DNA of 64,000 bases from positions 4,992 through 68,991 of the forward strand of contig CAMBCF010000005.1 of assembly GCA_945864585.1 (NCBI GenBank), written 5' to 3'. The translations under genes and the position numbers were made by a program. The DNA is from Bordetella parapertussis (GTDB taxonomy: Bacteria; Pseudomonadota; Gammaproteobacteria; Burkholderiales; SG8-41). Positions 16,820 to 46,891 of the stretch are shown here, piece after piece; the first letter of the stretch is position 1, and each line of letters begins with the position of its first letter. The notes under the pieces were generated by a model. It searched no databases and was not told where the DNA came from. It saw nothing but the letters and a program-made list of their open reading frames with translations.

Positions 16820-16839
16820 TCGGCATTCTGGAGGCAGTC

Positions 16840-22095: not shown

Positions 22096-22102
22096 ATGAA
22101 AA

Positions 22103-33414: not shown

Positions 33415-33583
33415 CACAGTGCCCCCGGCGCATGGGGGCGAGACGAAGTTGTCGCAACACGCCGTCTGGCTGGAACAACCATTGGAAGTTGCAGGCGCGG
33501 CGACATCCGTCGCTGTCGTTACGCAGCGCATCGAGTACGCCGCGCCATGAGCGGCGCGGTACCTCTACCCTGCTGACGCCACC

Positions 33584-34279
33584 CTACCGCAATCCGGCTA
33601 ATATCCCGAACACCTGCTGCATCGAGAAATCGTAGGTCTTCTGGTCGAATGCCGCACCGCCTCCCGCCATCATGTAGCCGTGCTGTATGCCGGGAAAAAT
33701 GTGCACCCCGACGTTTTTCATGCGCGCGGGCACGGCGCGGTAGGCTTCCTGCACCGGCGGCGGCGCGGCGTGATCCTGATCGCCCCAGATGATGCAGACC
33801 GGCTGCGTGACACCGTCGAGTTCCTTGATGTAATCGCCTAATTGCGTACCGTGGCACGAAATGCCAGCGCTGTAGCCGAGGCGTTTCGGGCCGAGGATCG
33901 CGTACGGGCCGCCGTAGCAAAACCCCATCGTGGCAGCGCGCCCGTTGAACTGCGGCAGCTTGCGCACCTCTGCTAGTGTGTCTGTCATATCGGCCTCGCC
34001 GGCCTCGATGACCTCGAGTCGCGGCAGCCCCCGCGGCGTCGAACGCGCATCGCCGCGCGCCAGCGGGCCTGGCACCGTGCGTGAGAACAGATCCGGTGCG
34101 GCCGCGATGTAGCCCTTGGCTGCGAAGGCGTCGGCGATGCCGCGCAGATCGGCATCCACGCCGTGTATCGCGCTGGCCAGCACAATCGCGGGCACTTTGC
34201 CCGGCGCATCCGGCGTAACCAGATAACAATCGAATGCGCCGCCGCCGCTGGATTTAATCTTGATGTCCTGCTGCTTCAT
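33584..34279 (-). CDS. dienelactone hydrolase family protein
   Basis: 231 aa; ..GKVPAIVLASAIHGVD...MGFCYGGPYA.. Confidence 0.85.
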   Translation of the reverse strand: MKQQDIKIKSSGGGAFDCYLVTPDAPGKVPAIVLASAIHGVDADLRGIADAFAAKGYIAAAPDLFSRTVPGPLARGDARSTPRGLPRLEVIEAGEADMTDTLAEVRKLPQFNGRAATMGFCYGGPYAILGPKRLGYSAGISCHGTQLGDYIKELDGVTQPVCIIWGDQDHAAPPPVQEAYRAVPARMKNVGVHIFPGIQHGYMMAGGGAAFDQKTYDFSMQQVFGILAGLR

Positions 34280-34411
34280 GACTCCCCCTGAATGGCTCTG
34301 TTGATGAACCGCGATATATTACCGCGACGGCGCGCGCCTGTGCGTATTTCACAATGTCGTGAGCAGTGATTTCACATCTGCCGCGCAGGCACAACACGCA
34401 CGTGCAGGAAA

Positions 34412-35254
34412 TTATTCGCTCGCGGCACCGTACTTACGCAAATAACTTTCATGCCGGAACAGGAAATCCGCGCCGACGATACGATGGTCGAACCCGTCCG
34501 GCCGGAACCGATAGTCGACAAATCCGACCTCGCGCGCGCCCCAGTGCAAAGTGGTGGGCGGAGAGTTTACGCAGGCGACGGACGGCCCCCACAGGTAATA
34601 AATACCGTCGAGCGAGAAGGACCGAGTTTGATGTTTGTGGCCCGAACTCACCAGGCGCACGCGGTGTTTATGGCACAGTTCGAGCAGGCGTGCGCGGCTG
34701 CCGGAGTCGATGCACGACTGGCGTAGCGTAAGATCATCATAATCCAGCTCCGATGGGTGATCGAGGAACAGCGGCTTGTGCAGAAACAGCGCAACCGGAC
34801 AATTTCTGAATCCTTCCAGCGTACGCGTCAGCCACATCCACTGCTCGGCTTCGGCGGCCTGGCCATCGCTGCCCAGCAGTTGCGAATTGAGCCCGACGAA
34901 ACCCCAGCCGGCGGCCTCGAATGCCCAGCGCTCCTCGCCAAAGTGGGCAGCGAAACGCGCACGCCGCGCATCATTGACGCGCTTCGCCATCTTGCCGGAG
35001 ATGACATTGTCGCCGATGTCATGATTGCCGGGCAGATAGCGGCAGGCTACGGCGAGCTGACCAATCTGCGCGCGCGCAAACACGTGATCCGCATCCTCGT
35101 CCGGATCGCCCATGACCAGGTCGCCGTTGGCAATAACCAGATCGGGTTGCTCGCGACCGATCCAGCGGACAACTTTCAGCCAATTGTCGAGATGATGCTC
35201 CTGACCGGCGCCCAGATGAATATCGGCCACCTGCACAACTCTGAATTCATTCAT
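34412..35254 (-). CDS. metallophosphoesterase (calcineurin-like)
   Basis: 280 aa; VVQVADIHLG...ANGDLV...LPGNHD. Confidence 0.85.
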   Translation of the reverse strand: MNEFRVVQVADIHLGAGQEHHLDNWLKVVRWIGREQPDLVIANGDLVMGDPDEDADHVFARAQIGQLAVACRYLPGNHDIGDNVISGKMAKRVNDARRARFAAHFGEERWAFEAAGWGFVGLNSQLLGSDGQAAEAEQWMWLTRTLEGFRNCPVALFLHKPLFLDHPSELDYDDLTLRQSCIDSGSRARLLELCHKHRVRLVSSGHKHQTRSFSLDGIYYLWGPSVACVNSPPTTLHWGAREVGFVDYRFRPDGFDHRIVGADFLFRHESYLRKYGAASE

Positions 35255-35365
35255 GGGTCACCGCTTCTTCGCTGGTATCGGACAATTATGGATAAATTAT
35301 ATTGCGGTGATTTTATTACCTATGCGCCGGAGTATTATGCAGCGATTCTTGCATAAGCGTTTATC

Positions 35366-36976
35366 GTGACGGAAAAATTTCAGGTAATCATCGTAGGCGG
35401 CGGGCCGGTGGGTGTGGGCCTTGCGGTGGCGCTGGGGCAACGCGGCATCTCCTGCGCCATAGTGGAGCGACGGCTCACGCCGCAACGCATCCCCAAGGGG
35501 CAAAATCTCACGCAGCGCACGCTGGAGCATTTTTATTTCTGGAACTGCGTGAAAGAACTGCGCGCCGCGCGCATCATGCCCACCGACGTGCCCACCAGCG
35601 GCGTCAGCGTCTACGGCAATTTGCTGAGCGAATTCTGGAGCGCACCCTCGCAGCGGGAGCTGGTGCAAAAATATTACTTTCAGGAATACGACCGGCTGCC
35701 GCAGTACTGCGCCGAAGCGGTGTTGCGCACGAGAATGGCAGCGCTCCCCTCAATCAAGTCATTTTTCGGCTGGAACGCGGAAAAGGTGGAGCAGGACGAG
35801 CATTCAGCGCGCGTTTGCATCACTGAAGCGAATGGCAGCGGGCGCCAGGTGCTGGAGGCCGATTACCTCGTCGGCTGCGACGGCGGCCACTCGCTCGTGC
35901 GCGAACAGGCCGGTATCGCGCGCAGCGGCGCCGACTTCGAGCAGAAAATGGTGCTGATGGTTTTTCGCTCGAAGGAACTGCAGGAGGGGCTCAAGCGCTT
36001 CCCGCTTAAATCCACCTACAACATCATGCATCCCGACCTCAACGGCTATTGGTTATTTTTCGGGCGCGTCGACATGGTCGATGGTTTTTTCTTTCACGCG
36101 CCGGTGCCCAATGAGTCGACTGCCGGGAATTACGATTTTCTCGGTCTGCTGCACCGTGCAGCCGGTTTCACGTTTGAGGTGGCGTTCGAGCATGTCGGTT
36201 TCTGGGACATGCGCGTCGCGGTCGCCGACGACTATCAGGCCGGGCGCGTTTTCATCGCCGGCGATGCCGCGCACAGCCATCCGCCGTATGGCGGTTTTGG
36301 TCTTAACAACGGCCTGGAGGATGCGGTAAATCTCAGCTGGAAACTGGCCGCGCATCTCGACGGCTGGGGCGGTAAGGCTTTGTTGCGCTCCTATAACGAA
36401 GAACGGCGCCCGGTGTTCGTCGACATCGGCCGTGATTTCATTTCCGCCCGCATCGAGGAAGACCGGGATTTTCTTGCGCGCTACAATCCGCAGCGGGACC
36501 GTGCCGAATTCGAACGCGCGTGGACGGAGCGCATGGCTCGCGTCAGCAGCAGGGCGCAGGTGTACGAGCCGAATTACGAAGGCTCCCCGGTGGTGATGGG
36601 GCCGCCGGGTGGCGTATGCAGTGCCCATGGCCATCACACCTTCACCGCGCGCGCCGGGCACCACCTGCCGCCTCACGTGCTTTCATCGGGTCACAATGTT
36701 TTCGAGGAACTCGGCGGCGGCTACACCCTGCTCGCGTTTGGTTTAAAGGACGGCGCGGATGACAGCGCGGGACAACGTGCAATTCGCGACTTCGAGCAGG
36801 CGGCACACTCGCTGAAGGTGCCGCTCACGGTAGTGCGCGACAGCGATAACAGCGGGCGCGAAACCTACGCCTCGAAACTCATCCTGGTGCGGCCCGATCA
36901 GTATGTAGCGTGGAACAGCGATACAGCGCCGCTGGATGCATGCGCCGTGGTGAGCAAAGTCGCTGGGCTAGTGTAG
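35366..36976 (+). CDS. FAD-dependent aromatic-ring monooxygenase (PheA/TfdB-like)
   Basis: 536 aa; VIIVGGGPVGVGLAVALGQRG...GDAAHSHPPYGGFGLNNGLEDAVNL. Confidence 0.85.
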   Translation: MTEKFQVIIVGGGPVGVGLAVALGQRGISCAIVERRLTPQRIPKGQNLTQRTLEHFYFWNCVKELRAARIMPTDVPTSGVSVYGNLLSEFWSAPSQRELVQKYYFQEYDRLPQYCAEAVLRTRMAALPSIKSFFGWNAEKVEQDEHSARVCITEANGSGRQVLEADYLVGCDGGHSLVREQAGIARSGADFEQKMVLMVFRSKELQEGLKRFPLKSTYNIMHPDLNGYWLFFGRVDMVDGFFFHAPVPNESTAGNYDFLGLLHRAAGFTFEVAFEHVGFWDMRVAVADDYQAGRVFIAGDAAHSHPPYGGFGLNNGLEDAVNLSWKLAAHLDGWGGKALLRSYNEERRPVFVDIGRDFISARIEEDRDFLARYNPQRDRAEFERAWTERMARVSSRAQVYEPNYEGSPVVMGPPGGVCSAHGHHTFTARAGHHLPPHVLSSGHNVFEELGGGYTLLAFGLKDGADDSAGQRAIRDFEQAAHSLKVPLTVVRDSDNSGRETYASKLILVRPDQYVAWNSDTAPLDACAVVSKVAGLV

Positions 36977-36990
36977 CCGCGTAACGGCCG

Positions 36991-38649
36991 TCAGAATCCG
37001 AGGGCGATCCCGCCGGGACGCGGATCACTGGCCCCGCGCAGCATGCCGTGCTCGCGATCGAGTTGTATCAACTGCACCGCGCCACCGCCCGACCATGCGC
37101 CTATCCTCTCGACACCATGGCCGAGGCCGGCAAGCGCGTCACATGCCGCTTGCGGTACGCGCTGCTCGATCTTGACCGCCGGTGTACCGCCCAGACTTCC
37201 CGGATCGGTACCCGGAAAGCTGTACCAGCGCGGCGCTTCGACCGCGTCCTGCAATGACATGCCGTGATCAATGACGCTGCTGATCACCTGCGTGCTCCAC
37301 TGCGTCTGCTGATCGCCGCCGGGCGTGCCGCCCACCAGCCACGGTTCACCGTTGCGGCAGATCAAATACGCATTCAGCGTGTGCATGGTGCGGCGGCCGG
37401 GTGCAATGACGTTGGGGTGATCTGGGTCGAGGCTGAAGCCGCGCCCGGCGCGGTTGTTAAGCGTGATGCCTGTTTCACCGCCGACCACACACGAACCAAA
37501 AGAATTCGACAGGCTGTGGATGAATGAAAGCGCGTTGCCGTCGCCATCGGCCACGGCAAAATAACTGGTGTCGCCATTGTGTTCGGGTAGCACTGCGCCC
37601 GCCGGCCACTGCGCGCGCCGCGGATCGATCAGCGCGCGGCGCGTGGCGGCGTGCCCTTTTGAAATCAGCTGTGCGAGCGGCCATTTCACAAAAGCCGGAT
37701 CACCCGCATAGCGGTTGCGGTCGGCGAACGCGAGCTTCTTCGCTTCGATCAGCAGATGCATGCGCTCGGCACTGTAGGGACTGAGCGACTTCAGATCAAA
37801 GCCTTCAACGATGTTGAGTTGTTCCAGCAGCACGAAACCCTGCGACGGCGGCGCGGTTTCGTGGATCATAAAACCGCGATAGTCGCTGGTGAGCGGCGCG
37901 TAAGTAACCGCCTGCTGTTGCGCAAAATCGCCGGCCTCGAATAAACCACCCTCGCTCTTGAAAAACGCGATCAGCTTTTCCGCAATCTCGCCGCGATAGA
38001 ACGCGTCGGCGCCGCCTTTCGCAACGATGCGCAGACTGCGCGCGAGATTCGGCGCGGCCCAGCGCTCGCCTGCAGCCGGCGCGCGCCCGTTGGGCAGAAA
38101 CTGTTTAGCGGACCATTCATACTGCGCCAGTTTGTCGGCGCTGTCAGCGTAGCGCCTGCTGATGTAATCGGTGATCGCAACACCGTTCTCCGCGAGTTGA
38201 ATCGCCGGCGCCCACAACTCCGCCCACGGCATCGTGCAGTAGCGCTTCCAGATCGCCTCGTAAACACTGACCGCACCGGGCACGCTCACGGCATGCACGC
38301 CGTGCAGCGGCATTTGTTTGTGCCCGCGGCTGGTGTAGTACTCGGCGGTCGCACCAGCCGCCGCCACGCCGCTGCCGTTGTAGGCGACCATTTCGCGTTT
38401 TTTTGCATCATGCAGTACCACGAATGCGTCGCCGCCGAGGCCGCATTTCATCGGCAGCACTACCCCCTCGGACGCGGCCACTGCAATCGCCGCGTCGAAA
38501 GCATTGCCGCCCCGTTGCAGCACGCTAAGCCCGATAAATGCCGCTGCCGGATGCGCGGAGGCAACCATGCCGCGCAGCCCGAATGCTTCAGGCCGTTGCC
38601 GCGTGCTGCTGCCTTCCGCCGCGCTGAGTCCCCATGATCCATCGTCCAT
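36991..38649 (-). CDS. gamma-glutamyltransferase family protein
   Basis: ORF 36991-38715; start taken at MDDGSWG (38649); ..GDTSYFAVADGDGNALSFIHSL.. (catalytic Thr region). Confidence 0.85.
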   Translation of the reverse strand: MDDGSWGLSAAEGSSTRQRPEAFGLRGMVASAHPAAAFIGLSVLQRGGNAFDAAIAVAASEGVVLPMKCGLGGDAFVVLHDAKKREMVAYNGSGVAAAGATAEYYTSRGHKQMPLHGVHAVSVPGAVSVYEAIWKRYCTMPWAELWAPAIQLAENGVAITDYISRRYADSADKLAQYEWSAKQFLPNGRAPAAGERWAAPNLARSLRIVAKGGADAFYRGEIAEKLIAFFKSEGGLFEAGDFAQQQAVTYAPLTSDYRGFMIHETAPPSQGFVLLEQLNIVEGFDLKSLSPYSAERMHLLIEAKKLAFADRNRYAGDPAFVKWPLAQLISKGHAATRRALIDPRRAQWPAGAVLPEHNGDTSYFAVADGDGNALSFIHSLSNSFGSCVVGGETGITLNNRAGRGFSLDPDHPNVIAPGRRTMHTLNAYLICRNGEPWLVGGTPGGDQQTQWSTQVISSVIDHGMSLQDAVEAPRWYSFPGTDPGSLGGTPAVKIEQRVPQAACDALAGLGHGVERIGAWSGGGAVQLIQLDREHGMLRGASDPRPGGIALGF

Positions 38650-38758
38650 TGCTGCCTCCTGTTGTCGCGACGTGCCTGCTTGACCGGCAGTATTTACTAC
38701 CGCGCGCCGCTGCACACTGCGTCAAAAAATACGCTACCGCGTACACGCCATGGCGACG

Positions 38759-39967
38759 CTACGCGGGTAAGCCGAACTCGCGGCGGCAGACCTCGGCAAG
38801 TGCTGCGACGCCCTGATGAATTTCCTCGTGGCTCGGGCTCGCAAAGCACAGCCTTAGCCGGCTGCGGCCATGCGCCTTGTTCACCGACCACTGGGCGCCT
38901 GGATTGATCGCGACGCCCGCCGCGAGCGCCGGCTCGTAGAGCTTCATCGTGTCGACGTGGTCGGGAAGCTTGACCCAGAGGAAAATGCCCCCCTTGGGAT
39001 CGTCGAACTCCACCGCCGTCCCGAAGTGTTCTTTGAGCGATTCCATCAACGTCTCGAGCTTGGCTCGCAGGCCGCGCCGCAACGCCGGAACATGCCGGGT
39101 AAACTGCCGCACGCAGAACTCCGCCAGCACCATCTGCTCCAGCGCGCCGGAACCGCCGTCGGTCTTGAGTGGGAGGATGCGCGACATCACATCCCAGGGC
39201 GCCACGATGTAGCCGACCCGCAGCGCCGGCGCGATCGACTTCGAGAACGAGCCGATATGGATGACATCACCGTGCTCGCTCATGGCGTAGAGCGCGGGTG
39301 GGCGCTCGCCCGACCAGATCAGATCGGCATAACAGTCGTCCTCGAAAATGGGCACGCCATGCGCCGCTGACAGCCGCAGCATCTCCTGGCGCCGTTGCAG
39401 CGGCATGATGGTGCCGGTCGGATTCTGCACAGTCGGAATGGTGTAGATGTACTTCGGCCGGATGCCCTTGCGTTTGAGATCGTCGAGCGCGGCCGACAGC
39501 GCATCGATGCGCATGCCGTCGTGGTCGAGCGGGATGCCGACCGGGGTGACGCCAAGCCGGGTCAACCGGTTGATCGATCCCTGGTAGCAATCCTGTTCGA
39601 TGATCACGGTATCGCCACGTTCGAGCAGCGTGCCGTTGACCAGGTCAATCGCCTGCAACGATCCCGACGTGATCAGAATATCGTCGGCCGTGCAATCGAT
39701 GGCCGCATCGGCCTTGAGCTTGGCGGCGACAAACTCACGCAGCGCGCGGTAGCCCTGCGGGCCGCTGTTCAGCCCATAGGTCGAGAGCGTACGCCCCTCG
39801 CGTTTGAGTACCGCGTCGGCAGCCGCAATCAAATCTTCGAGCGGCAGCCGGTCCGCGTCATTGTTGCCGCCGGTGAAATCAAACTTGACGCGCCCGCTCC
39901 AGCGCGCCGCCGCCGGCGGTAATCCCTTGGCCAAAAACGGTGCGAAATCAAACGTTGCGGTACTCAT
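38759..39967 (-). CDS. PLP-dependent aminotransferase (class I/II fold)
   Basis: 402 aa; ..IGSFSKSIAPALRVGYIV.. Lys motif. Confidence 0.85.
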   Translation of the reverse strand: MSTATFDFAPFLAKGLPPAAARWSGRVKFDFTGGNNDADRLPLEDLIAAADAVLKREGRTLSTYGLNSGPQGYRALREFVAAKLKADAAIDCTADDILITSGSLQAIDLVNGTLLERGDTVIIEQDCYQGSINRLTRLGVTPVGIPLDHDGMRIDALSAALDDLKRKGIRPKYIYTIPTVQNPTGTIMPLQRRQEMLRLSAAHGVPIFEDDCYADLIWSGERPPALYAMSEHGDVIHIGSFSKSIAPALRVGYIVAPWDVMSRILPLKTDGGSGALEQMVLAEFCVRQFTRHVPALRRGLRAKLETLMESLKEHFGTAVEFDDPKGGIFLWVKLPDHVDTMKLYEPALAAGVAINPGAQWSVNKAHGRSRLRLCFASPSHEEIHQGVAALAEVCRREFGLPA

Positions 39968-40023
39968 CGTCTTGGGTCTTCCTCCAGATTAGAAAATTTA
40001 AGCGCTATTTTTGACCAGCGGGG

Positions 40024-40052
40024 ACTGTATCCCTCGCCCGCAGAATGGTCAA
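40024..40052 (-). promoter_or_regulatory. recurring promoter module, copy E (TTGACC-17-TACAGT)
   Basis: Minus strand: gcGGTTGACC at 40052-40047, 17-nt spacer, ggaTACAGT at 40029-40024; 57 nt upstream of the aminotransferase ATG. Confidence 0.5.
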
Positions 40053-40230
40053 CCGCATGAATGTACTTGTCATTGACGAAATCGCTGATACGATAGGCTG
40101 CAGCATTGATGACCGGCAGACTGGATAGAAAAACGAGTCAGCAAGTATCATTCCTTGCGCACCTATCAGCACGCGCTAGTCCGCCAAATCAGTCATCGCA
40201 CTTATATCACCTGAGAAAGGATTACCCATC

Positions 40231-41475
40231 ATGGTTCGCCTGGCAGACCTCTCGCCTTCCGATCAGGAAAACATGCTCAAAAAAGTTCCCACGCTTCCGC
40301 GCTTTGAGCAGCGCCCCTGGGCACGCGGCCCCAAACTCGCGCAGCGCCGCTTGGCGATCGTCAGCACCGCCGGTTTGCACGCGCGCGGTGACCGGCCGTT
40401 CGGTGGCGGCGGCATGGACTACCGGGTGATTGCCGGCGACATCGACGCCGGTGATCTGATCATGAGCCATATGTCGGTAAATTTCGACCGCAGCGGATTT
40501 CAGGAAGACTGGAATGTCGCATTTCCGCTGGATCGCCTGCAAGAACTCGCGCACGAAAAAATGATCGGTTCCGTCGCGGCATTTCACTACTCGTTCATGG
40601 GCGCCGTATCGCCGGTGACGAATTACCAAGCCAAAGCCGCCGAGCTTGCGCAATTGCTGCGCAACGACAAGGTTGACGCAGTATTGTTATCGCCCGTTTG
40701 ACCCAACTACACGTGCGCCGTCGGCGCACTCGGTCACTACCTCGAAGCCGCAGGCATACCCACCACGCAGATCAGTCTGGTACGCGAACACACCGAAGCA
40801 CTCGCGCCGCCGCGCGCGCTGTGGGTGCCCTTCATGCTCGGGCGTCCGTTCGGCGTGCCCAACGACGCTGCGTTTCAACGCAGGGTGCTGCTTGCCGCAC
40901 TGCAATTGTTCGAACGTGAATCGGGCCCCGTGCTTGAGGATTTTGCGCAAGACGCGCCGCATCAACGGTTAAGTTCGCCGCCTGAGAATCTGGTGTGCCC
41001 GGTCAGTTTCCCGCGCCTGCAGGCCGAGGGCGCACTGGCAGAAAAACTGGCCGACGAAGTATCGCAACTGCAAGCGTGGCACGAGGTGGCCGTCAAGCAT
41101 CGCGGCCGCACCACGCTGGGCGTCACTGGCATGCAGCCACTGCAAATCGTGGATTACCTCACGGCGTGGCTCAGCAATCAGCCCCCGCAGCCGTTTCGCA
41201 AGGATATATCACCCGGCGACGCCCTCAAGCAGGCGTGCGATGAACTCAAGGCTTTTTATCTGGAAGCCAAGGCTGTGCAACCGGGGCAGCACTCGGCAGC
41301 CAGTATTCAGCAGTGGTTCTGGATGGAAACCGCACTCGCTCAGGCTATTGTTCAGATACGCGCCATCGCGGCGAGCAGCGCTGAACCTTCCGTGAAAGGG
41401 GTTGCCGTGCAGAGCCTGGTTCCGCGCGCAATGGAAGCCGCTGTGCAGAAAAAGGCTGTTTCACAGAGCAGATGA
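40231..41475 (+). CDS. PrdB/GrdB-family (selenoprotein B-like) protein with in-frame UGA (predicted selenocysteine) at 40699-40701
   Basis: ORFs 40231-40701 and 40825-41475 share one frame; only interruption is TGA 40699; read-through ..DAVLLSPV-U-PNYTCAVGALGHYLEAAGIPTTQISL..; hairpin 11 nt downstream; AAAGGA RBS before ATG 40231. Confidence 0.8.
40713..40729 (+). promoter_or_regulatory. SECIS-like RNA hairpin
   Basis: GTGCGCC-GUC-GGCGCAC, perfect 7-bp stem starting 11 nt after UGA; GU at loop apex 18 nt past the UGA. Confidence 0.65.
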
Positions 41476-41554
41476 CCGTAAAACCCGTGCAAAATTAACC
41501 CGAGTAATCACATCGAAGTATAGAACGCCTGTCTTTCAAATAAAGGAAAACACA

Positions 41555-42115
41555 ATGATAAAACCGCTAGGCAATGACGATTTGTCCGACAAGCCGGGGG
41601 AAAGGATTATTGACAAGCCCGAACTGCCGGCCGCCGGCATCACCAATGAAAATGATCTGTTGACTGAAACCGTGAGCGGCCAGTTGCAGCTCAAGCGCAG
41701 CCAGTCAGGCAAGTTCGAAGTGTGGTGCGATGAGCCTGCGCGCATCGGCGGCACGGATACCTATCCGTCCCCAATGACGTATCTGGCGATGTCGATCGGC
41801 TTCTGACTGCTCACTCAGGTTGCGCGGTACGCGCACATGATGAAATTGAAAGTCAGCGACCCCAAATGCCGCGTAGTGATGCGCAAACACCTGGGTGGTT
41901 CCGTCATCAAAGGCACAGTGTTCAACAAGTGGGAGGGCATCAGTACCTATCTCACGGTCGAAAGCGACGAGGCTGAGGACAAGCTTGCGCATTTGATCAA
42001 AAACGCAAAAGCAGGATGCTTTGCGGAGGGACTGATCACCCAACAAGTTCCACTACACAGCCATGTCGAAGTAAACGGCAAGCCGTTTCAAATCGAAGGT
42101 GTTACGCAGAAATAG
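41555..42115 (+). CDS. OsmC/Ohr-family protein with in-frame UGA (predicted selenocysteine) at 41804-41806
   Basis: ORFs 41402-41806 and 41837-42115 share one frame; ..DEPARIGGTDTYPSPMTYLAMSIGF-U-LLTQVA.. puts UGA at the first conserved Cys column; second Cys kept in KNAKAGCFAEGL; RBS AAAGGAAAA before ATG 41555. Confidence 0.8.
41821..41835 (+). promoter_or_regulatory. SECIS-like RNA hairpin
   Basis: TGCGCG-GUA-CGCGCA, 6-bp stem starting 14 nt after UGA; GU at loop apex 20 nt past the UGA. Confidence 0.6.
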
Positions 42116-42150
42116 CGCTTTGACGTACACACTCACGACATCCTGCCAGG

Positions 42151-42528
42151 CTAATCTGCAAGCTTCTCGTAAGCCGCAACGTCCAGCAGCGCCCCCAACT
42201 CAGCCGGGTCGCTGAGTTTCATACGAAACAGCCACGCACCATATGGGTCTGTATTGACCGCTTCCGGCGCATCAGTGAGCGCTGGATTGATTTCAGTCAC
42301 CAGGCCCGAAGCGGGCGCATGTACGTCGGCCACAGTTTTGACGGACTCAATCACACCGCACGCTTCGCCCTGTCTGACCATGACGCCGGCAGCAGGAGGC
42401 TGCACGTAAACCACATCGCCCAACTGTTCCTGCGCGTGATAGGTAACGCCGACGATACAGCTATCGCCGGACTCCATCTTCAGCCAGGTGTGTGATTCAT
42501 GATACTTAAGATTCCCGGGGTTCAACAT
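42151..42528 (-). CDS. gcvH: glycine-cleavage-type H protein (lipoyl carrier)
   Basis: 125 aa; ..YHESHTWLK...GVIESVKTVADVHAPASG.. lipoyl-Lys motif; no gcvT/gcvP nearby. Confidence 0.85.
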   Translation of the reverse strand: MLNPGNLKYHESHTWLKMESGDSCIVGVTYHAQEQLGDVVYVQPPAAGVMVRQGEACGVIESVKTVADVHAPASGLVTEINPALTDAPEAVNTDPYGAWLFRMKLSDPAELGALLDVAAYEKLAD

Positions 42529-42555
42529 GAATTTTCAGCAAGCGCATTAATTCGC

Positions 42556-43785
42556 TCAGACGATCTTATCCGCTTGCAGTTTACCCACCGCATCAGCGCT
42601 AAGACCGAGCCAGCCGGTGAGCACATCCGCGGTATGCTCGCCGAGACCCGGGGACGCCTTTATCTTCGGCGGCTTGCCGTTGATCCGCACCGGCCAGGAT
42701 GACATTTTGAAGGCGGGGTAATTCTTGCGCTCCATCACCTGCATGATGCCGCGTTGTTCGAAGCTCGCGTCATTCTGTAGCTCCATCGTATCCAGCACCG
42801 CGCCTGCCGGTATGCCCGCGCCGCCAACCAACTTCATCGCCTCATGCTTGGTACGCGCCTTGGTCCAGGCGGTAATGATAGCGTCGAGTTCAGCGTCGTT
42901 CTTCACCCGCAACGCCGGCGTGGCAAAGCGCGGATCGTTGACCAGATCCTCACGTCCGATCACCTTGCACAGCCGCGACCAATGCTCGGGATTCGCGCGG
43001 CTGGTCATAATCCAAACATAGTCGTTAAGCCCCCCCGGCGCGCAGGGAAACAGTCCCGACGGGGCATTGGAGCCGCCGCCCGAGCGTGTGCCATCGCGCT
43101 CGACCGCCTTGCCGGTGCGCGCCTGGGTGGAGAAGTTGGTGCGCATGTAGTGCAGCATCGCGTCCTGCATCGCCACCTGCAATCGGCAACCCTCGCCGGT
43201 TTTCTCACGTTTGCGCAACGCGGCGAGAATAGTAATCGCCATCGTCATGCCCGTCCCGGTGTCACCAAGAGACAGGCCGGGCTTCACCGGCTGCCGCCCG
43301 CGCTCGCCGGTCACACTGATGGTTCCGCCCATCGCCTGGGCGATCATATCGAAGGCGAGGTTGGTCTCGTACGGGCTGCCCTCGCCAAACCCCTTGACTT
43401 GGCAAAAAATAATACCGGGATTGATCTTCTTTACCTCGTCATAGCCGAGGCCAAGACGCTCAATCGTGCCGGGCGCCATGTTCTCCACCGCGATGTCGGC
43501 CTTGCGCAGCAGGTCCTTGACCAGCGCCAACCCCTCCGGCGCTTTCAAATTCAGCGTGATCGATTTCTTGTTGGCGTTGAACTCGTTGAAATAATACGGA
43601 TCGTCGTCGGGCTGGCCTGGCCGCAGCCGCCGTCCCGGATCGCCGGTCCGAGGATTTTCGATTTTTACCACCTCTGCGCCCAACCAGGCGAGGGCTTCGG
43701 TGCAGGACGGCCCAGCCTCGAACTGGGTAAAGTCAACGACCCGGACTCCGGCGAGAAAATCATAATCAGCACTGTTGTTCGACAC
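42556..43785 (-). CDS. family III CoA-transferase (formyl-CoA transferase-like)
   Basis: 409 aa; LAGVRVVDFTQFEAGPSCTEALAWLGAEVVKIENP. Confidence 0.9.
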   Translation of the reverse strand: MSNNSADYDFLAGVRVVDFTQFEAGPSCTEALAWLGAEVVKIENPRTGDPGRRLRPGQPDDDPYYFNEFNANKKSITLNLKAPEGLALVKDLLRKADIAVENMAPGTIERLGLGYDEVKKINPGIIFCQVKGFGEGSPYETNLAFDMIAQAMGGTISVTGERGRQPVKPGLSLGDTGTGMTMAITILAALRKREKTGEGCRLQVAMQDAMLHYMRTNFSTQARTGKAVERDGTRSGGGSNAPSGLFPCAPGGLNDYVWIMTSRANPEHWSRLCKVIGREDLVNDPRFATPALRVKNDAELDAIITAWTKARTKHEAMKLVGGAGIPAGAVLDTMELQNDASFEQRGIMQVMERKNYPAFKMSSWPVRINGKPPKIKASPGLGEHTADVLTGWLGLSADAVGKLQADKIV

Positions 43786-43885
43786 GGTTCTACCTCCCTT
43801 GGTTATGTCATCCTTGTCCTAAGCTTCGCACAAACCATAGATTAATCCAACTGGCTGCCGGGGCAGACTTTGCATGATTTGGGCT

Positions 43886-43937
43886 TAGGGCCTGTTAACA
43901 ATTGATTCGCGAGCGAATTAATTGTTAACAGGCCCTA
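43886..43937. repeat. 52-bp near-perfect palindrome built from two copies of the 24-bp repeat TAGGGCCTGTTAACAATTRATTCG
   Basis: TAGGGCCTGTTAACAATTGATTCGC-ga-GCGAATTAATTGTTAACAGGCCCTA; one mismatch between arms; same repeat bounds the element at 46892-47159. Confidence 0.85.
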
Positions 43938-43951
43938 GCGGCGGTAATGAT

Positions 43952-44863
43952 TTAGTTGAAGTTGAGCTTTAACCCTGGCTCCGGCCACTGCATCACGCCG
44001 AGCCGCCCGGTGCCGGACAGTGTAATGTAAGCCGTGCGCATATCCGCCCCGCCGAAGCAGATATTGGTCGGATGGCCATCGGGCATTTTTACCGCGCGCA
44101 CAACCTCACCTACCGGCGAAAACTCCGTGATGTAGCCGGTAATCAAAGTCGCCACCACGATATTGCCATTCGCCAGAACCTTAAGGCTGTCGAACTTGGC
44201 ATTGCCGCCGAGCCCGGCAATAACGCGTCCGCTGTGCGGTGCATAATCGGGCTTGAGCTTCACCTTGCCGGGGCCTTGCACCTCAAACGCCCACAAGCGC
44301 GCGCCATCGGTCTCAGCGACGTAAAGCGTTTTGCCATCGGGCGACAAGCCGCAACCATTGGGACTCAATACGGGATAGGCCACTTCGATGACCTTCGAGC
44401 CGTCAGGCAGCGCGTAATAGACACCGCCGTAAACCTTGTGACGTGGCATGCGCTTGCCGAGATCAGTAAAGTAGAATCCACCTGCCTTGTCGAACACCAG
44501 ATCGTTCGGCGCCGACAGCAGGTGGCCGTTCACTTCCTTGTACAGCAGTTTTGCGACACCGGTTTTGGGATCGATGCGCTGGACGGAACCGAATTGGTAA
44601 TCCGGGTGCGGGCCCATGCCTAGGGGATGGCCTTCGACATAACGGTTGCCGCCGTTGTTGCACAAATAGAAAAATCCATCCGGCCCCACCGCGAGCCCGT
44701 TGGGCCCGCCACCGCACTCGGAAAACAGGCTGACCTTGCCATCCGGCGCGACGCGCGAACAGCGCCGACTACGCAGCTCCACCAAAACCACGGAGCCATC
44801 GACGCAAACCACTGGCCCTTCCGGAAAACCCAGTCCCGTCGCCAGTATTTTCATGTCGTCCAT
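43952..44863 (-). CDS. SMP-30/gluconolactonase/LRE-family protein
   Basis: 303 aa beta-propeller; ..GLGFPEGPV...PNDLVFDKAGGFYFTD.. Confidence 0.85.
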   Translation of the reverse strand: MDDMKILATGLGFPEGPVVCVDGSVVLVELRSRRCSRVAPDGKVSLFSECGGGPNGLAVGPDGFFYLCNNGGNRYVEGHPLGMGPHPDYQFGSVQRIDPKTGVAKLLYKEVNGHLLSAPNDLVFDKAGGFYFTDLGKRMPRHKVYGGVYYALPDGSKVIEVAYPVLSPNGCGLSPDGKTLYVAETDGARLWAFEVQGPGKVKLKPDYAPHSGRVIAGLGGNAKFDSLKVLANGNIVVATLITGYITEFSPVGEVVRAVKMPDGHPTNICFGGADMRTAYITLSGTGRLGVMQWPEPGLKLNFN

Positions 44864-44973
44864 GATGCGTTACTCCTTGCTTGATTTTTTGCGGGTGACC
44901 ATGGTGCAGATGTAGCGGAAGCGCGATCAAACGTGTGCATGAATTTTTTTTGCGCCACGCGCGGGCTACCGGC

Positions 44974-45002
44974 AATGTATCGCCGGCTCGGCCAGCGGTC
45001 AA
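44974..45002 (-). promoter_or_regulatory. recurring promoter module, copy F (TTGACC-17-TACATT)
   Basis: Minus strand: gcGGTTGACC 45002-44997, 17-nt spacer, TACATT 44979-44974; 111 nt upstream of the SMP-30 ATG. Confidence 0.45.
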
Positions 45003-45041
45003 CCGCGCACAAGTTCAAGCGCGTGCGCCACAGCGCGCAGG

Positions 45042-45605
45042 CTACCTGTGCAAGCGGCTCGTACGCGGTACCCCAATGAGCAAGTATTCCATTTGATCCG
45101 CCAGGATGTTTCGGTTCCGCAGGATAAAGTGCTCGTGCCTGGAGGGCGTGTAAGGCACATAAAGCAGCGGCATGCGCGCCTGCTCTGGCGTGCGATCCGC
45201 CTTTCTCCCGTTACAGGCCCGACACGCTGTGACCACATTCATCCAAACGTGCTTCCCGCCCCTTGAAACCGGTATCACGTGGTCGCATGAGAGTTCGCGG
45301 GTAGCAAAACGATTACCGCAATACGCGCACAGATGACGATCACGCGCGTAGAGCAGGTCATTGCCCAGCACCGGCACGCGCGCGAGCAAGCGTCCGGCAT
45401 GGCCCGCTCCACGCAGCGCCAAAATCGATTGCGTTTCAATACGTGAACGACGTCCATCGCGTTGCGTGCCGCCACGGTATTCGCAGACGCGGTTACCCGC
45501 CGACCAGGCCACAAGCTGCTTGGCGTGATACGTGATCGCCTCTTCGATACCCACCCAGGCCTGTGGCAGACCAGCCTGGTCCAGCATCAGAATCAATGTT
45601 TGCAT
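45042..45605 (-). CDS. HNH endonuclease
   Basis: 187 aa; ..CAYCGNRF...LSCDHVIPVSRGGKHVWMNVVTACRACNGRKADR.. Confidence 0.85.
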   Translation of the reverse strand: MQTLILMLDQAGLPQAWVGIEEAITYHAKQLVAWSAGNRVCEYRGGTQRDGRRSRIETQSILALRGAGHAGRLLARVPVLGNDLLYARDRHLCAYCGNRFATRELSCDHVIPVSRGGKHVWMNVVTACRACNGRKADRTPEQARMPLLYVPYTPSRHEHFILRNRNILADQMEYLLIGVPRTSRLHR

Positions 45606-45752
45606 TATTTTATCTCGTAACTATAACCGGTCGGCCGCTCTCACCGCCGACCAGTTTTGTTGCTATTGCGTAATTTGACATCGTTATGGACAATGTGTTC
45701 TACGACGAATTCTGCCTGCCGTTTCCGGCAAGACTGGATGTGGTTTACAGGT

Positions 45753-45831
45753 TGGTACCGTCGGCAGGACTCGAACCCGCATCCTCCGCGTTCGAAGCGC
45801 GGCACTCTGGTTCCAATTGAGTTACGGCGGT
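45753..45831 (-). tRNA. tRNA-Arg (anticodon UCG), CCA encoded; atypical A1-U72 and C5-A68 mismatch
   Basis: Hand-folded: ACCGCCG TA ACTC..GAGT G CCGCG CTTCGAA CGCGG AGGAT GCGGG TTCGAGT CCTGC CGACGGT A CCA. Confidence 0.7.
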
Positions 45832-45843
45832 GCAAATCTGAAT

Positions 45844-45918
45844 TGGTAGGCCCTGCAGGAATCGAACCTGCCTAATGCGGATTAAAAGTCCGCTGCCTCG
45901 CCAATCGGCCAAGGACCT
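45844..45918 (-). tRNA. tRNA-Lys (anticodon UUU), CCA encoded; A1-U72
   Basis: Hand-folded: AGGTCCT..GCGGA CTTTTAA TCCGC ATTAG GCAGG TTCGATT CCTGC AGGGCCT A CCA. Confidence 0.75.
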
Positions 45919-45928
45919 GAATTGATAG

Positions 45929-46005
45929 TGGGGTGACCGACGCGATTCGAACGCGCACCCGCTTGGTTCACAGCCAAGCACTCTGCCAGTTAAGCTACGA
46001 CCACC
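45929..46005 (-). tRNA. tRNA-His (anticodon GUG) with encoded G-1 opposite C73, CCA encoded
   Basis: Hand-folded: G-GTGGTCG TA GCTT..CTTGG CTGTGAA CCAAG CGGGT GCGCG TTCGAAT CGCGT CGGTCAC C CCA. Confidence 0.8.
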
Positions 46006-46017
46006 ATCGATAAAAAT

Positions 46018-46095
46018 TGGCTCCGGCCAGTGGAATCGAACTACTCTCATTCGCCGTTAACAGCGGCGCGCTTTCACCTTGAAAGCCAGACCGGA
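46018..46095 (-). tRNA. tRNA-Asn (anticodon GUU), CCA encoded
   Basis: Hand-folded: TCCGGTC TG GCTT TCAAGGTGA AAGC G CGCCG CTGTTAA CGGCG..TTCGATT..GGCCGGA G CCA; U1-A72 and G73 as in E. coli tRNA-Asn; starts 8 nt after the rtcB stop. Confidence 0.75.
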
Positions 46096-46103
46096 AACTA
46101 TGC

Positions 46104-46409
46104 CTACCCCTTCACGCACAGCACCTGTTTCAGGGTATGCACGATTTCGACGAGATCCGATTGCGCCGCCATCACGTCATCGATGGACTTGTACGCGCCC
46201 GGAATCTCATCAATCACACCGCTGTCCTTGCGATATTCCACACCAGCGGTTTGCTGTGCCAGGTCCGCTTGCGAGTAGCGGCGCCTGGCTTCACCCCGGC
46301 TCATGCGGCGCCCCGCGCCATGCGAACATGAGGCATACGCGTCAGCGTGCCCCTTGCCCTTCACGATGTAGGACTTCACTCCCATGCTGCCAGGGATGAT
46401 GCCAAGCGC
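46104..46409 (-). pseudogene. rtcB: RNA ligase RtcB, 3'-terminal remnant (about last 100 codons)
   Basis: ..LGIIPGSMGVKSYIVKGKG..SCSHGAGRRMSR..IDEIPGAYKSIDDVMAAQSDLVEIVHTLKQVLCVKG closely resembles the E. coli RtcB C-terminus; upstream the frame dissolves into the Bug fragment in another frame. Confidence 0.8.
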
Positions 46410-46885
46410 ACGATCAGCTCCCTGGCGGATTTGGCGGGAACCGACGGGTGGGCCACCAGCAGCATACAGGTGTGCACGAGAAACGCCACCGGCGCCAGAT
46501 CGACGAGCGGGTCATAGTTGAGTTTCAGCAGATGGGGGTTGATCACGATCTGTCCCAAGGTGGCGAACACCAGGGTATGACCGTCTGGCGGCGATTTGGC
46601 GGTCAGCTCCACCGCGATCGAGCCCGATGCGCCGGAACGATGCTCGATGATCACAGGTTGTTTCCAGGTTTCGTTCAGTTTTTGCGAGACCATGCGCGCA
46701 AACAGATCGGTCGCACCACCCGGCGGCTGTCCTGAGAGAATGCGTACCGGTTTGGACGGATACGCTTGACCCAGTGCTGCGCTACCGTGCGTAAGCAGCG
46801 CGCACATCGCTAGTACGCTCACGATCACACTGATTAATCGCGAGGCAGAATCCAACCCAGCTACATTCTGAGACGAAGTTTTCAT
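46376..46885 (-). pseudogene. Bug/TctC-family receptor, N-terminal half only (3'-truncated at junction with the rtcB remnant)
   Basis: 169 aa: signal peptide, YPSKPVRILSGQPPGGATD..EHRSGASGSIA..AHPSVPAKSARELI then unrelated tail and stop; family continues about 160 aa further in intact paralogs. Confidence 0.7.
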
Positions 46886-46891
46886 CTTGAC

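What the first reader, a model, noticed from the sequence alone, without database searches (positions are those of the whole stretch)
40231..43785. Candidate selenium-dependent redox module: two selenoprotein genes next to an orphan H-protein and a CoA-transferase
The PrdB/GrdB-like and OsmC-like genes are co-directional, 79 nt apart, and probably one operon. They converge on a minus-strand pair encoding a family III CoA-transferase (42556-43785) and a lipoyl-carrier H protein (42151-42528), with no gcvT or gcvP nearby. Clostridial PrdB/GrdB enzymes perform reductive C-N cleavage and need a dithiol reductant, and OsmC proteins are thiol-dependent peroxidases. A lipoylated H protein could supply the dithiol to one or both. 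An aminotransferase and a GGT-family gene lie immediately upstream (36991-39967). The combination in an apparently aerobic heterotroph suggests an uncharacterised amino-acid or betaine-type reductive pathway, or a Sec-based redox defence unit. This is a hypothesis from gene content only.
Basis: inference. Interest (0 to 1): 0.7.

Follow-up and report, generated by a model that had tools for sequence, protein, structure and literature searches.

The report
Selenoprotein redox operon remnant beside GcvH
Two adjacent genes that each use a UGA codon for selenocysteine are real and are the trimmed remains of a multi-selenoprotein antioxidant-type operon found in lake and groundwater Burkholderiales; the lipoyl carrier GcvH next door may feed it electrons, but the CoA-transferase is an unrelated recent neighbour.

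Summary
PrdB/GrdB-like (40231-41475) and OsmC-like (41555-42115) genes each carry one in-frame TGA. That TGA is conserved in 80/80 and about 55 homologous loci, and each is followed by a hairpin with compensatory base changes. Both families have been predicted selenoproteins since 2005.

The proposed four-gene module is not conserved. Collinearity with the nearest relatives (93-94% nucleotide identity over the selenoprotein block) ends 15 nt upstream of gcvH. The CoA-transferase therefore lies in a window-specific 4.3-kb segment. The aminotransferase and GGT genes are shared only with close relatives.

What recurs in Betaproteobacteria is TetR -> [AhpD-like(Sec)] -> PrdB-like(Sec) -> OsmC-like(Sec) -> [AhpD-like(Sec)]. 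The window keeps a 54-nt fossil of a deleted second OsmC-like gene. Its PrdB-like UxxC cysteine is replaced by Tyr.

GcvH stays inside this island through several rearrangements. OsmC, Ohr and AhpD are known lipoyl-dependent enzymes, so a lipoyl-GcvH-fed selenoperoxidase unit is the best reading (about 0.5). However, gcvH in this clade is never next to gcvT/P, so its orphan status is not informative.

A Stickland-type reductive pathway is unsupported: no PrdA/GrdE/GrdA partner, sub-threshold HMM scores and an extra C-terminal domain. This is a new variant of known kinds, of moderate interest.

The parts
40231..41475 (+). PrdB/GrdB-like selenoprotein gene (414 codons; Sec at codon 157). It has a PrdB-homologous alpha/beta domain and a family-specific helical C-terminal domain. 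The active-site motif here is U-P-N-Y-T-C, where relatives have U-P-x-C-T-[CR].
   Evidence: TIGR04483 PrdB 89 bits against a cut-off of 300, covering residues 35-227. (Cys homologues have PVCPNCT). (TGA in 80/80 loci). (model with pLDDT 81; no PDB analogue). (Tyr variant only in the window, L001 and L002).
40699..40701 (+). In-frame TGA, read as selenocysteine 157 of the PrdB-like protein.
40713..40729 (+). SECIS-like hairpin starting 11 nt after the UGA: 7-bp stem GUGCGCC/GGCGCAC with loop GUC.
   Evidence: fold; across 77 homologous sequences 87.8% of cells are paired, 5 of 7 pairs show compensatory changes, and 0 of 500 shuffles reach the observed values.
41437..41490 (+). Fossil of the 3' end of a deleted second OsmC-like selenoprotein gene ('type B'). 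It now supplies the last ~12 codons of the PrdB-like gene in another frame, plus the start of the intergenic spacer.
   Evidence: peptide RCAEKGCFTEQMTVKPV against RCAKKGCFAEQMVVKPV. (DNA alignment with L007, where PrdB-like, OsmC-B and OsmC-A are all intact).
41555..42115 (+). OsmC-like selenoprotein gene ('type A', 186 codons). Sec84 sits in a UxxT motif at the position of the first (peroxidatic) Cys of OsmC. Cys154 (GCFAE) sits at the position of the second Cys.
   Evidence: NF041052, 162 bits against 95. (alignment to PDB 3cje)..
41804..41806 (+). In-frame TGA, read as selenocysteine 84 of the OsmC-like protein.
41821..41835 (+). SECIS-like hairpin starting 14 nt after the UGA: 6-bp stem UGCGCG/CGCGCA with loop GUA.
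   Evidence: 100% of cells are paired in 55 distinct sequences, 3 pairs show compensatory changes, and the covariation score is 0.384 against 0.083 in shuffles.
42151..42528 (-). GcvH lipoyl-carrier protein (125 aa, ESVK lipoyl-lysine motif). It converges on the OsmC-like gene with a 35-nt gap. It is the candidate electron donor.
   Evidence: TIGR00527, 129 bits against 115.85. (retained in the island in the window, L158, L006, L005, L090, L153 and L104).
42544..46887 (.). Window-specific segment, NOT part of the conserved unit. It holds the family III CoA-transferase (42556-43785, -), an SMP-30/SGL lactonase-like gene (43952-44863, -), an HNH endonuclease (45042-45605, -), four tRNA genes (45753-46095, -) and an RtcB C-terminal fragment (46104-46385, -).
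   Evidence: blastn collinearity with L158 and L006 ends at 42543. L158 has a MetX-like hydrolase upstream of gcvH instead..

Best explanation
The PrdB-like(Sec) and OsmC-like(Sec) genes are a trimmed copy of a selenoprotein operon specific to Burkholderiales. In relatives the operon reads TetR -> [AhpD/CMD-like(Sec, CxxU)] -> PrdB-like(Sec, UxxC) -> OsmC-like(Sec, UxxT; up to four paralogues) -> [AhpD-like(Sec)].

I read it as a selenol/thiol-based hydroperoxide or electrophile detoxification unit. It is not a Stickland-type reductase.

Proposed mechanism (inferred, not shown):
1. Sec84 of the OsmC-like protein attacks ROOH and forms a selenenic acid.
2. Cys154 resolves it to a Se-S bond.
3. 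A dithiol re-reduces the Se-S bond. The most likely donor is dihydrolipoyl-GcvH, encoded next door and recharged by housekeeping lipoamide dehydrogenase with NADH. The electrons may pass through the UxxC (PrdB-like) or CxxU (AhpD-like) proteins.

Shown here:
- Sec coding, the SECIS-like hairpins and the conserved gene order.
- The window lineage lost the TetR gene and one OsmC-like gene, of which a fossil remains.
- The UxxC cysteine of the PrdB-like protein has mutated to Tyr.
- The CoA-transferase, lactonase, aminotransferase and GGT genes are bystanders.

The biochemical role of the PrdB-like protein itself remains unknown.
For: Sec coding: TGA is conserved in 80/80 PrdB-like loci and in 55 distinct OsmC-like sequences. 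The downstream hairpins covary.

Family identity: NF041052 is passed at 162 bits against a cut-off of 95. Sec84 and Cys154 align with the two Cys residues of a solved OsmC-like protein.

Recurrent gene order:
- TetR-PrdBl(U)-OsmC(U) in L005, L007, L009, L011, L115, L117 and L120.
- PrdBl-OsmC-AhpD(U) in L047, L117 and L118.
- TetR-AhpD(U)-PrdBl(U) in L029, L030, L035 and L039.
- Overall, 12 of 80 species-level loci have a Sec-OsmC or Sec-AhpD gene beside the PrdB-like gene.
- The AhpD-like genes are CMD family with a C-x-Y-U motif.

Fossil of OsmC-B in the window.

GcvH is retained through rearrangements: window, L158 and L006 (convergent on OsmC-A); L005, L090 and L153 (same strand, among OsmC and AhpD Sec genes); L104 (AhpD-OsmC-GcvH, 178 nt apart).

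Precedent:
- Lipoyl groups on proteins reduce Ohr/OsmC (Cussiol 2010, as cited in PMC5384416).
- Mycobacterial AhpD/AhpC draw on lipoyl-E2 (PMC12440151).
Against: - No experiment addresses this family.
- Most PrdB-like loci (68 of 80) have no OsmC-like, AhpD-like or GcvH neighbour. They span SAR202/Dehalococcoidia, Desulfobacterales and Rhodospirillaceae, so the PrdB-like protein does not need these partners.
- Type A OsmC-like genes, the window's type, usually lack a PrdB-like neighbour (L089-L095, L110).
- All GcvH-containing islands come from related organisms (PrdB-like protein at least 89% identical, or AhpD-like protein 86-89% identical). They may reflect one ancestral juxtaposition rather than repeated selection.
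- The GcvH passes the canonical gcvH equivalog model. Its closest homologues elsewhere sit at a housekeeping-type site (accC-prmA-DUF3426-gcvH-[tpx]-dgkA).
- No lipoamide dehydrogenase gene is nearby.
- The window's PrdB-like protein has lost the UxxC cysteine, so it may be decaying.
Confidence: 0.5

Rival explanations
1. Chance or historical juxtaposition. The two selenoprotein genes are each real but functionally independent redox proteins that are co-inherited. GcvH is simply the cell's housekeeping glycine-cleavage and lipoyl-relay H protein, which happens to lie beside them.
For: - GcvH passes TIGR00527 and NF002270.
- In this clade gcvH is never next to gcvT/P, in 6 of 6 contexts examined.
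- All GcvH-linked islands belong to related organisms.
- 68 of 80 PrdB-like loci, and most type A OsmC-like loci, lack these partners.
- The region is a patchwork of paralogous Bug/TctC, CoA-transferase and oxygenase genes.
Against: - The PrdB-like -> OsmC-like order, with gaps of 50-100 nt on the same strand and often behind the same TetR gene, recurs across PrdB-like proteins that have diverged to 51-90% identity.
- Three different Sec redox families (UxxC, UxxT, CxxU) co-cluster in different orders.
- GcvH survives an inversion, deletions and a flank replacement that changed everything on its other side.
Confidence: 0.3
2. A selenium-dependent reductive C-N cleavage pathway for an amino acid or betaine-type compound, in which the PrdB-like protein is the catalytic selenosubunit, GcvH is the dithiol donor, and the CoA-transferase, aminotransferase and GGT process substrate or product.
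For: - The N-terminal 230 residues are homologous to nearly the whole of PrdB (E = 3e-25, profile positions 26-218 of 238).
- The UxxC motif matches that of PrdB and GrdB.
- JGI pipelines name the fragments 'D-proline reductase (dithiol) PrdB'.
Against: - Scores are far below the equivalog cut-offs: 89 against 300 for PrdB, 38 against 602 for GrdB, and 41 against 65 for the subfamily model.
- No PrdA/GrdE pyruvoyl proprotein, GrdA, GrdC or PrdC appears in the window or as a conserved neighbour in 80 loci.
- There is an extra ~160-residue helical domain, present in 498 representative clusters and always at the same place after the Sec.
- The CoA-transferase is absent from the nearest relatives, and collinearity breaks in front of it.
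- The aminotransferase and GGT are shared only with relatives whose PrdB-like protein is at least 89% identical.
- The hosts include aerobic isolates (Zwartia, Polynucleobacter).
Confidence: 0.07
3. Decaying locus. The window copy is on the way to loss, so it is not functional as a unit in this organism.
For: - A 54-nt fossil remains of a deleted OsmC-B gene.
- The UxxC cysteine is replaced by Tyr in three independent assemblies of this species only.
- The TetR gene is absent.
- The upstream intergenic region 40064-40194 is not conserved with relatives.
Against: - Both reading frames are otherwise intact.
- Both SECIS-like hairpins are perfect.
- A second cysteine two residues on (U-x-x-Y-x-C) is retained and could take over the resolving role.
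- The L158 and L006 relatives share the same reduced layout with an intact UxxC.
Confidence: 0.1

Closest known systems
Clostridial D-proline reductase PrdB and glycine/sarcosine/betaine reductase protein B (GrdB/GrdF/GrdH)
   Same: The alpha/beta domain is homologous (PF07355; TIGR04483 aligned over almost its full length). The selenocysteine sits in a UxxC motif at the equivalent position.
   Different: - Scores are far below every family cut-off.
- No pyruvoyl partner (PrdA/GrdE), GrdA, GrdC or PrdC is encoded nearby or conserved.
- There is an additional ~160-residue helical C-terminal domain.
- The hosts are largely aerobic Proteobacteria and SAR202 rather than amino-acid fermenters.
- The window copy has UxxY.
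'Proline reductase PrdB' predicted selenoprotein family of marine metagenomes (Zhang, Fomenko and Gladyshev 2005, PMC1088965; GOS 2008, PMC2398784)
   Same: Same Pfam domain, same UxxC motif, almost always Sec rather than Cys, and abundant in oxic waters. The relatives found here in SAR202, Rhodospirillaceae and Gammaproteobacteria MAGs fit that family.
   Different: I could not align the published sequences directly, so identity with that family is probable but not shown. Those papers did not report the C-terminal domain, nor the linkage to OsmC-like and AhpD-like selenoproteins, TetR or GcvH.
OsmC-like selenoprotein family (NCBIfam NF041052; 'OsmC-like protein, UxxT' of Zhang et al. 2005)
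   Same: It passes the curated model. It has Sec in UxxT at the first-Cys position and a conserved second Cys.
   Different: Nothing differs at the family level; it is a member. What is new is that up to four diverged paralogues (38-55% identical to each other) sit in one island.
Lipoyl-dependent peroxidase systems: Ohr/OsmC with lipoylated proteins (Cussiol 2010); Trichomonas OsmC with the H and L proteins (Nyvltova 2016); mycobacterial AhpC-AhpD-DlaT-Lpd
   Same: The same protein families (OsmC, AhpD/CMD, lipoyl carrier) are encoded side by side. An H protein without T or P partners nearby would serve as the electron relay.
   Different: Here the catalytic residues are selenocysteines. A PrdB-like selenoprotein is part of the operon. 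No Lpd gene is linked. Nothing has been tested biochemically.
Multi-selenoprotein operons (grdAB, prdBC, frhA-frhD-hdrA, SAO, Tso; reviewed in PMC13188914)
   Same: Several Sec-decoding genes lie in one transcription unit, presumably in one pathway.
   Different: The families are different. The combination PrdB-like + OsmC-like + AhpD-like is not listed in that review's operon section. It was not found in two full-text searches.

Membership tests
D-proline reductase PrdB (TIGR04483) | Score at or above the curated equivalog cut-off (300 bits) | tested here: not met
   89 bits, residues 35-227 on profile positions 26-218 of 238.
D-proline reductase PrdB (TIGR04483) | Selenocysteine (or Cys) in a UxxC motif | tested here: inconclusive
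   Sec is present. Relatives have U-P-x-C (80/80). The window has U-P-N-Y with a Cys two residues later.
D-proline reductase PrdB (TIGR04483) | Encoded with the pyruvoyl proprotein PrdA (and with PrdC/D/E/F) | tested here: not met
   No such domain appears in the Pfam neighbour tables of the window or of L158. No conserved neighbour of that kind appears in 80 loci.
D-proline reductase PrdB (TIGR04483) | About 240 residues, single domain | tested here: not met
   414 residues. There is an extra helical domain from about residue 255, found in 498 representative clusters at the same position.
Glycine/sarcosine/betaine reductase protein B (TIGR01917, TIGR01918, NF040794, NF040795) | Score at or above the curated cut-offs | tested here: not met
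   38.1 against 602; 40.8 against 65.45; 41.7 against 800; 44.8 against 775. Only the general Pfam GRDB model is passed (35.4 against 22, residues 84-154).
Glycine/sarcosine/betaine reductase protein B (TIGR01917, TIGR01918, NF040794, NF040795) | Partners GrdA, GrdE and GrdC/D encoded in the locus | tested here: not met
   Absent from the neighbour tables and from the conserved neighbour clusters.
OsmC-related (seleno)protein NF041052 | Score at or above the curated cut-off (95 bits) | tested here: met
   162.2 bits, residues 37-175 on profile positions 6-144 of 144.
OsmC-related (seleno)protein NF041052 | Sec or Cys at the first (peroxidatic) Cys position, and a second conserved Cys | tested here: met
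   U84 aligns with the first Cys and C154 with the KKGCF Cys of PDB 3cje. TGA is conserved in 55 distinct homologues.
OsmC-related (seleno)protein NF041052 | Thiol/selenol peroxidase activity | not testable with these tools
   This needs an enzyme assay.
Bacterial selenoprotein gene (Sec decoding) | In-frame UGA with conserved coding sequence on both sides | tested here: met
Bacterial selenoprotein gene (Sec decoding) | Stem-loop shortly downstream of the UGA with G in the apical loop (bacterial SECIS; the criterion is from my own knowledge of Zhang and Gladyshev's bSECIS model) | tested here: met
   Hairpins at 40713-40729 and 41821-41835 with loops GUC and GUA. Covariation is shown. Rfam has no matching family.
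Bacterial selenoprotein gene (Sec decoding) | selA, selB, selC and selD present in the genome | not testable with these tools
   None lies in the 64-kb window. The whole genome is not available.
Glycine cleavage H protein GcvH (TIGR00527) | Score at or above the cut-off, and a lipoyl-lysine motif | tested here: met
   129.3 against 115.85; NF002270 145.5 against 117. The motif I-E-S-V-K is present.
Glycine cleavage H protein GcvH (TIGR00527) | Functions with GcvT and GcvP (typically a gcvTHP cluster) | tested here: inconclusive
   No gcvT or gcvP lies in the window. The same holds for 6 of 6 contexts of its 73-82% identical homologues. Whether T and P exist elsewhere in the genome, or whether there is a second gcvH, cannot be seen.
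Formyl-CoA transferase Frc (TIGR03253 / NF003809) | Score at or above the cut-off | tested here: not met
   362.7 against 504.2 and 369.7 against 442. It is a family III CoA-transferase of unassigned specificity (PF02515, 383 bits).

The most novel reading that the evidence does not exclude
The PrdB-like selenoprotein has been listed for twenty years as 'proline reductase PrdB' and is among the most abundant selenoprotein families in oxic waters. On this reading it is not a Stickland reductase. It is a component of a selenol-based peroxide or electrophile defence relay that, in Burkholderiales, is wired to Sec-OsmC and Sec-AhpD enzymes and draws electrons from a lipoylated GcvH. That would be a selenium version of the lipoyl-dependent peroxidase systems.
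Probability: 0.3. Interest if true: 0.7.

Novelty: new variant of a known kind. Interest (0 to 1): 0.45.

Why it matters
Both selenoprotein families are widespread, and the PrdB-like one is very abundant in surface-water metagenomes. Neither has an assigned function, and pipelines label the PrdB-like fragments as D-proline reductase.

The conserved TetR/PrdB-like/OsmC-like/AhpD-like operon and its link to a lipoyl carrier give a concrete, testable hypothesis. The test is a coupled assay of lipoyl-GcvH, Lpd and NADH with organic hydroperoxides. The result would bear on what these proteins do and on why aerobic freshwater Betaproteobacteria invest in selenocysteine.

The work also shows how not to read the locus. 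The CoA-transferase, aminotransferase and GGT genes are accidents of neighbourhood.

Tried and rejected
- Rfam scan of the window: only tRNAs were found and no SECIS family matched. I therefore tested the hairpins by covariation on homologous loci instead.
- Folding free-energy z-scores of the regions downstream of the UGAs were unremarkable (-1.5 and -0.8). The support for the hairpins comes from comparative data, not from energy.
- PDB sequence search with the PrdB-like protein gave no hit at E <= 1.
- The AlphaFold2 model of a Cys homologue was good (pLDDT 81), but Foldseek against the PDB gave nothing at E <= 0.001. The best match was a B12-binding-like photocobilin protein with TM 0.22. 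No functional inference from fold is possible.
- The promoter and terminator scan gave counts no higher than in shuffled sequence.
- No neighbour of the PrdB-like gene is conserved across all 80 loci. Bug/TctC genes are frequent but are massively paralogous in Burkholderiales, so I disregarded them.
- I first took the tpx (thiol peroxidase) gene beside gcvH in other Betaproteobacteria as independent support for a GcvH-peroxidase link. Further contexts showed the same housekeeping block without tpx, so I downgraded this to weak evidence.
- L104 (AhpD-OsmC-GcvH) looked like an independent lineage. Its AhpD-like protein is 89% identical to that of L153, so it is the same island family.
- I could not determine whether the genome has a second gcvH, or where gcvT, gcvP and the sel genes lie.

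Full report
**Observation**

- PrdB/GrdB-like gene. 40231-41475 (+) is a single 414-codon frame interrupted only by TGA at 40699-40701.
- OsmC-like gene. 41555-42115 (+) is a 186-codon frame interrupted only by TGA at 41804-41806. The two genes are 79 nt apart.
- Converging minus-strand pair. These are a 125-residue GcvH (42151-42528) and a family III CoA-transferase (42556-43785).
- Upstream genes. An aminotransferase (38759-39967) and a gamma-glutamyltransferase (36991-38715) lie upstream on the minus strand.
- Absent from the window. The 64-kb window has no gcvT or gcvP and no selA/B/C/D.
- Source. The window is a metagenomic contig of a Burkholderiales-type organism. It is near-identical to ENA ERZ27280197 k141_2084698.

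**Are the TGAs selenocysteine codons? Yes.**

PrdB-like gene:
- More than 2,000 database relatives were found. Most are ~156-residue or ~248-residue fragments that end or begin at the TGA. A few full-length homologues have Cys there, in the motif PVCPNCT.
- In 80 species-level genomes encoding a relative (45-90% identical), the aligned codon is TGA in every one, within P-V-U-P-x-C-T-[CR].
- Starting 11 nt after the UGA is a 7-bp GC-rich hairpin with loop G-U-N. Across 77 sequences, 87.8% of cells are paired and five of seven pairs show compensatory changes. No shuffle reached the observed values.

OsmC-like gene:
- 55 distinct homologous sequences have TGA at the aligned position, and one has Cys.
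- A 6-bp hairpin with loop GUA, starting 14 nt after the UGA, is paired in 100% of cells. Three pairs show compensatory changes.
- The protein passes NCBIfam NF041052 'OsmC-related (seleno)protein' (162 bits against 95).
- Sec84 and Cys154 align with the two cysteines of a solved OsmC-like protein, PDB 3cje.

Both families have been in the predicted-selenoprotein literature since 2005, as 'proline reductase PrdB, UxxC' and 'OsmC-like, UxxT' (PMC1088965, PMC2398784, PMC13188914).

**Is the four-gene module conserved? No.**

- Among the 80 genome loci, none has an orthologous CoA-transferase. Only paralogues of 27-30% identity occur, in four loci.
- A 250-kb contig whose GcvH is 97% identical and whose PrdB-like protein is 95% identical (L158) has a MetX-like alpha/beta hydrolase upstream of gcvH. 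It has no CoA-transferase, lactonase, HNH gene or tRNA genes.
- Nucleotide collinearity with L158 and L006 (88-96% identity) runs from about 33517 to 42543 and stops there. That is 15 nt upstream of the gcvH start codon.
- Window 42544-46887 is therefore a lineage-specific replacement. It holds the CoA-transferase, an SGL lactonase-like gene, an HNH endonuclease, four tRNA genes and an RtcB fragment.
- Family III CoA-transferases are also paralogous in this window; another lies at 16840-18051.
- The aminotransferase and GGT are shared only with relatives whose PrdB-like protein is at least 89% identical.

**What is conserved**

A scan of all fetched loci for the relevant families shows a recurrent Betaproteobacterial operon: TetR -> [AhpD/CMD-like] -> PrdB-like -> OsmC-like -> [AhpD/CMD-like]. 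All the non-regulator genes carry in-frame TGA.

- The AhpD-like proteins have a C-x-Y-U motif and match Pfam CMD and TIGR01926.
- TetR-PrdBl-OsmC occurs in L005, L007, L009, L011, L115, L117 and L120.
- PrdBl-OsmC-AhpD occurs in L047, L117 and L118.
- TetR-AhpD-PrdBl occurs in L029, L030, L035 and L039.
- PrdBl-AhpD-OsmC occurs in L138.
- In total, 12 of the 80 species-level loci have a Sec-OsmC or Sec-AhpD gene beside the PrdB-like gene. All twelve are Betaproteobacteria.

The OsmC-like genes fall into at least four diverged paralogue types. One 10-kb stretch of a Burkholderiales MAG (L153) holds four OsmC-like and two AhpD-like Sec genes around a gcvH.

Type B is usually the one directly downstream of the PrdB-like gene. 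L007 has PrdBl-B-A.

The window has type A directly downstream. It also retains, at 41437-41490, a fossil of the type B 3' end, about 85% identical to L007 DNA. A deletion follows, and then the shared leader of type A. The window layout is therefore a reduced derivative. Its last dozen PrdB-like codons are read from former OsmC-B DNA in another frame.

The window's species alone (three assemblies) has Tyr in place of the UxxC cysteine.

**GcvH**

GcvH lies in the island in several arrangements:
- Convergent on OsmC-A in the window, L158 and L006.
- Co-directional, between Bug genes and flanked by the OsmC-B, AhpD-like and OsmC-C genes, in L005, L090 and L153.
- 178 nt downstream of AhpD-like and OsmC-C in L104.

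It survived a flank replacement that changed everything on its other side. This argues for a link.

Three points temper that argument:
- All these organisms are related, so the island may have arisen once.
- The protein is a canonical GcvH by score.
- Its 73-82% identical homologues in other Betaproteobacteria lie at a housekeeping-type site (accC-prmA-DUF3426-gcvH-[tpx]-dgkA), again without gcvT or gcvP. Being 'orphan' is therefore normal in this clade.

The mechanistic precedent is strong:
[quoted passage not shown] - Mycobacterial AhpD and AhpC are coupled to lipoyl-E2.

**The PrdB-like protein**

Its first ~230 residues are homologous to almost the whole of PrdB (E = 3e-25), but it is far below every PrdB and GrdB cut-off. 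It carries an extra helical domain of about 160 residues. That domain occurs in 498 representative clusters, always about 90 residues after the Sec, and almost only in post-UGA fragments.

No PrdA/GrdE/GrdA/GrdC partner is encoded nearby or conserved. The model of a Cys homologue is confident (pLDDT 81) but has no significant PDB analogue.

I conclude that it is a relative of PrdB and GrdB but not a D-proline or glycine reductase subunit. Its UxxC selenol/thiol centre more likely acts in a redox relay. This last step is inference.

**Verdict**

The finding is a real pair of selenoprotein genes from families already known. It is embedded in a multi-selenoprotein operon type that I did not find described in the 2026 review's operon section or in full-text searches. 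That operon has a plausible but unproven lipoyl-GcvH connection. The reductive-pathway reading and the role of the CoA-transferase are rejected.

Noticed in passing
window 42544-46887: This 4.3-kb segment holds the CoA-transferase, an SGL/SMP-30 lactonase-like gene, an HNH endonuclease, four tRNA genes and an RtcB fragment. It is absent from the closest relatives (L158, L006), whose DNA is otherwise collinear at 88-96% identity. The adjoining 46888-47164 matches L158 at a different place and in the opposite orientation. The segment looks like a replacement or rearrangement, possibly brought by a mobile element.
   Followed up: partly
window 45753-46095 (-): There is a tight array of four tRNA genes: Arg-TCG, Lys-TTT, His-GTG and Asn-GTT. 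ARAGORN calls all four, but Rfam's tRNA model reaches its gathering score for only three; the Asn gene at 46018-46095 is missed. On one side lies an HNH endonuclease gene (45042-45605). On the other lie a 93-residue RtcB C-terminal fragment (46104-46385; profile positions 327-426 of 426) and a truncated TctC gene (46376-46885).
   Followed up: partly
window 41437-41490: This is a fossil of a deleted OsmC-like 'type B' selenoprotein gene. Its DNA now encodes the non-conserved C-terminal tail of the PrdB-like protein in a different reading frame.
   Followed up: yes
window 40702-40719: The otherwise invariant UxxC cysteine of the PrdB-like family is Tyr (TAC) in this species only. It is seen in the window, L001 and L002, while the 95%-identical L158 has Cys. 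L001 additionally has Ala for the Pro that follows the Sec.
   Followed up: yes
L153 1-10381 (NCBI GCA_040081205.1, JBEBHE010000053.1): This is a dense selenoprotein island. Four OsmC-like genes and two AhpD/CMD-like genes all carry in-frame TGA, and a third AhpD-like copy has Leu at that position. They surround a gcvH and are interspersed with Bug/TctC receptor genes.
   Followed up: partly
L149, L151, L154, L157, L160 (gcvH at ~4001-5384): In other Betaproteobacteria the closest GcvH homologues sit in a conserved block: aroQ-accB-accC-prmA-DUF3426-gcvH-tpx-dgkA. A thiol peroxidase gene (NF001808, 247 bits) lies directly downstream. In L162-L164 the same block lacks tpx.
   Followed up: partly
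window 40064-40194: The intergenic region upstream of the PrdB-like gene, where its promoter should lie, is the one stretch inside the conserved block that does not align with L158 or L006. Relatives with the full operon have a TetR gene at this position.
   Followed up: no
window 11631-18051: This is a separate acyl-CoA catabolic cluster. It holds an acetyl-CoA hydrolase/transferase-family gene, an enoyl-CoA hydratase, a GntR regulator, an acyl-CoA dehydrogenase, an HpcH/HpaI-type lyase and a second family III CoA-transferase (16840-18051). A MmgE/PrpD-family gene (9471-10883) lies just upstream. It shows how paralogous the CoA-transferase family is in this genome.
   Followed up: no
window 4823-8308 (+): This is a large fused gene with B12-binding, MeaB-type GTPase and methylmalonyl-CoA-mutase domains (IcmF-like architecture, 1146-1161 residues).
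   Followed up: no
window 21273-24610 (-): A CbbQ/NorQ-type AAA+ gene is followed by an 835-residue VWA-domain gene (a NorD-like pair). An identical copy of the VWA protein is in NCBI assembly GCA_947490945.1, which may be a MAG of the same organism.
   Followed up: no
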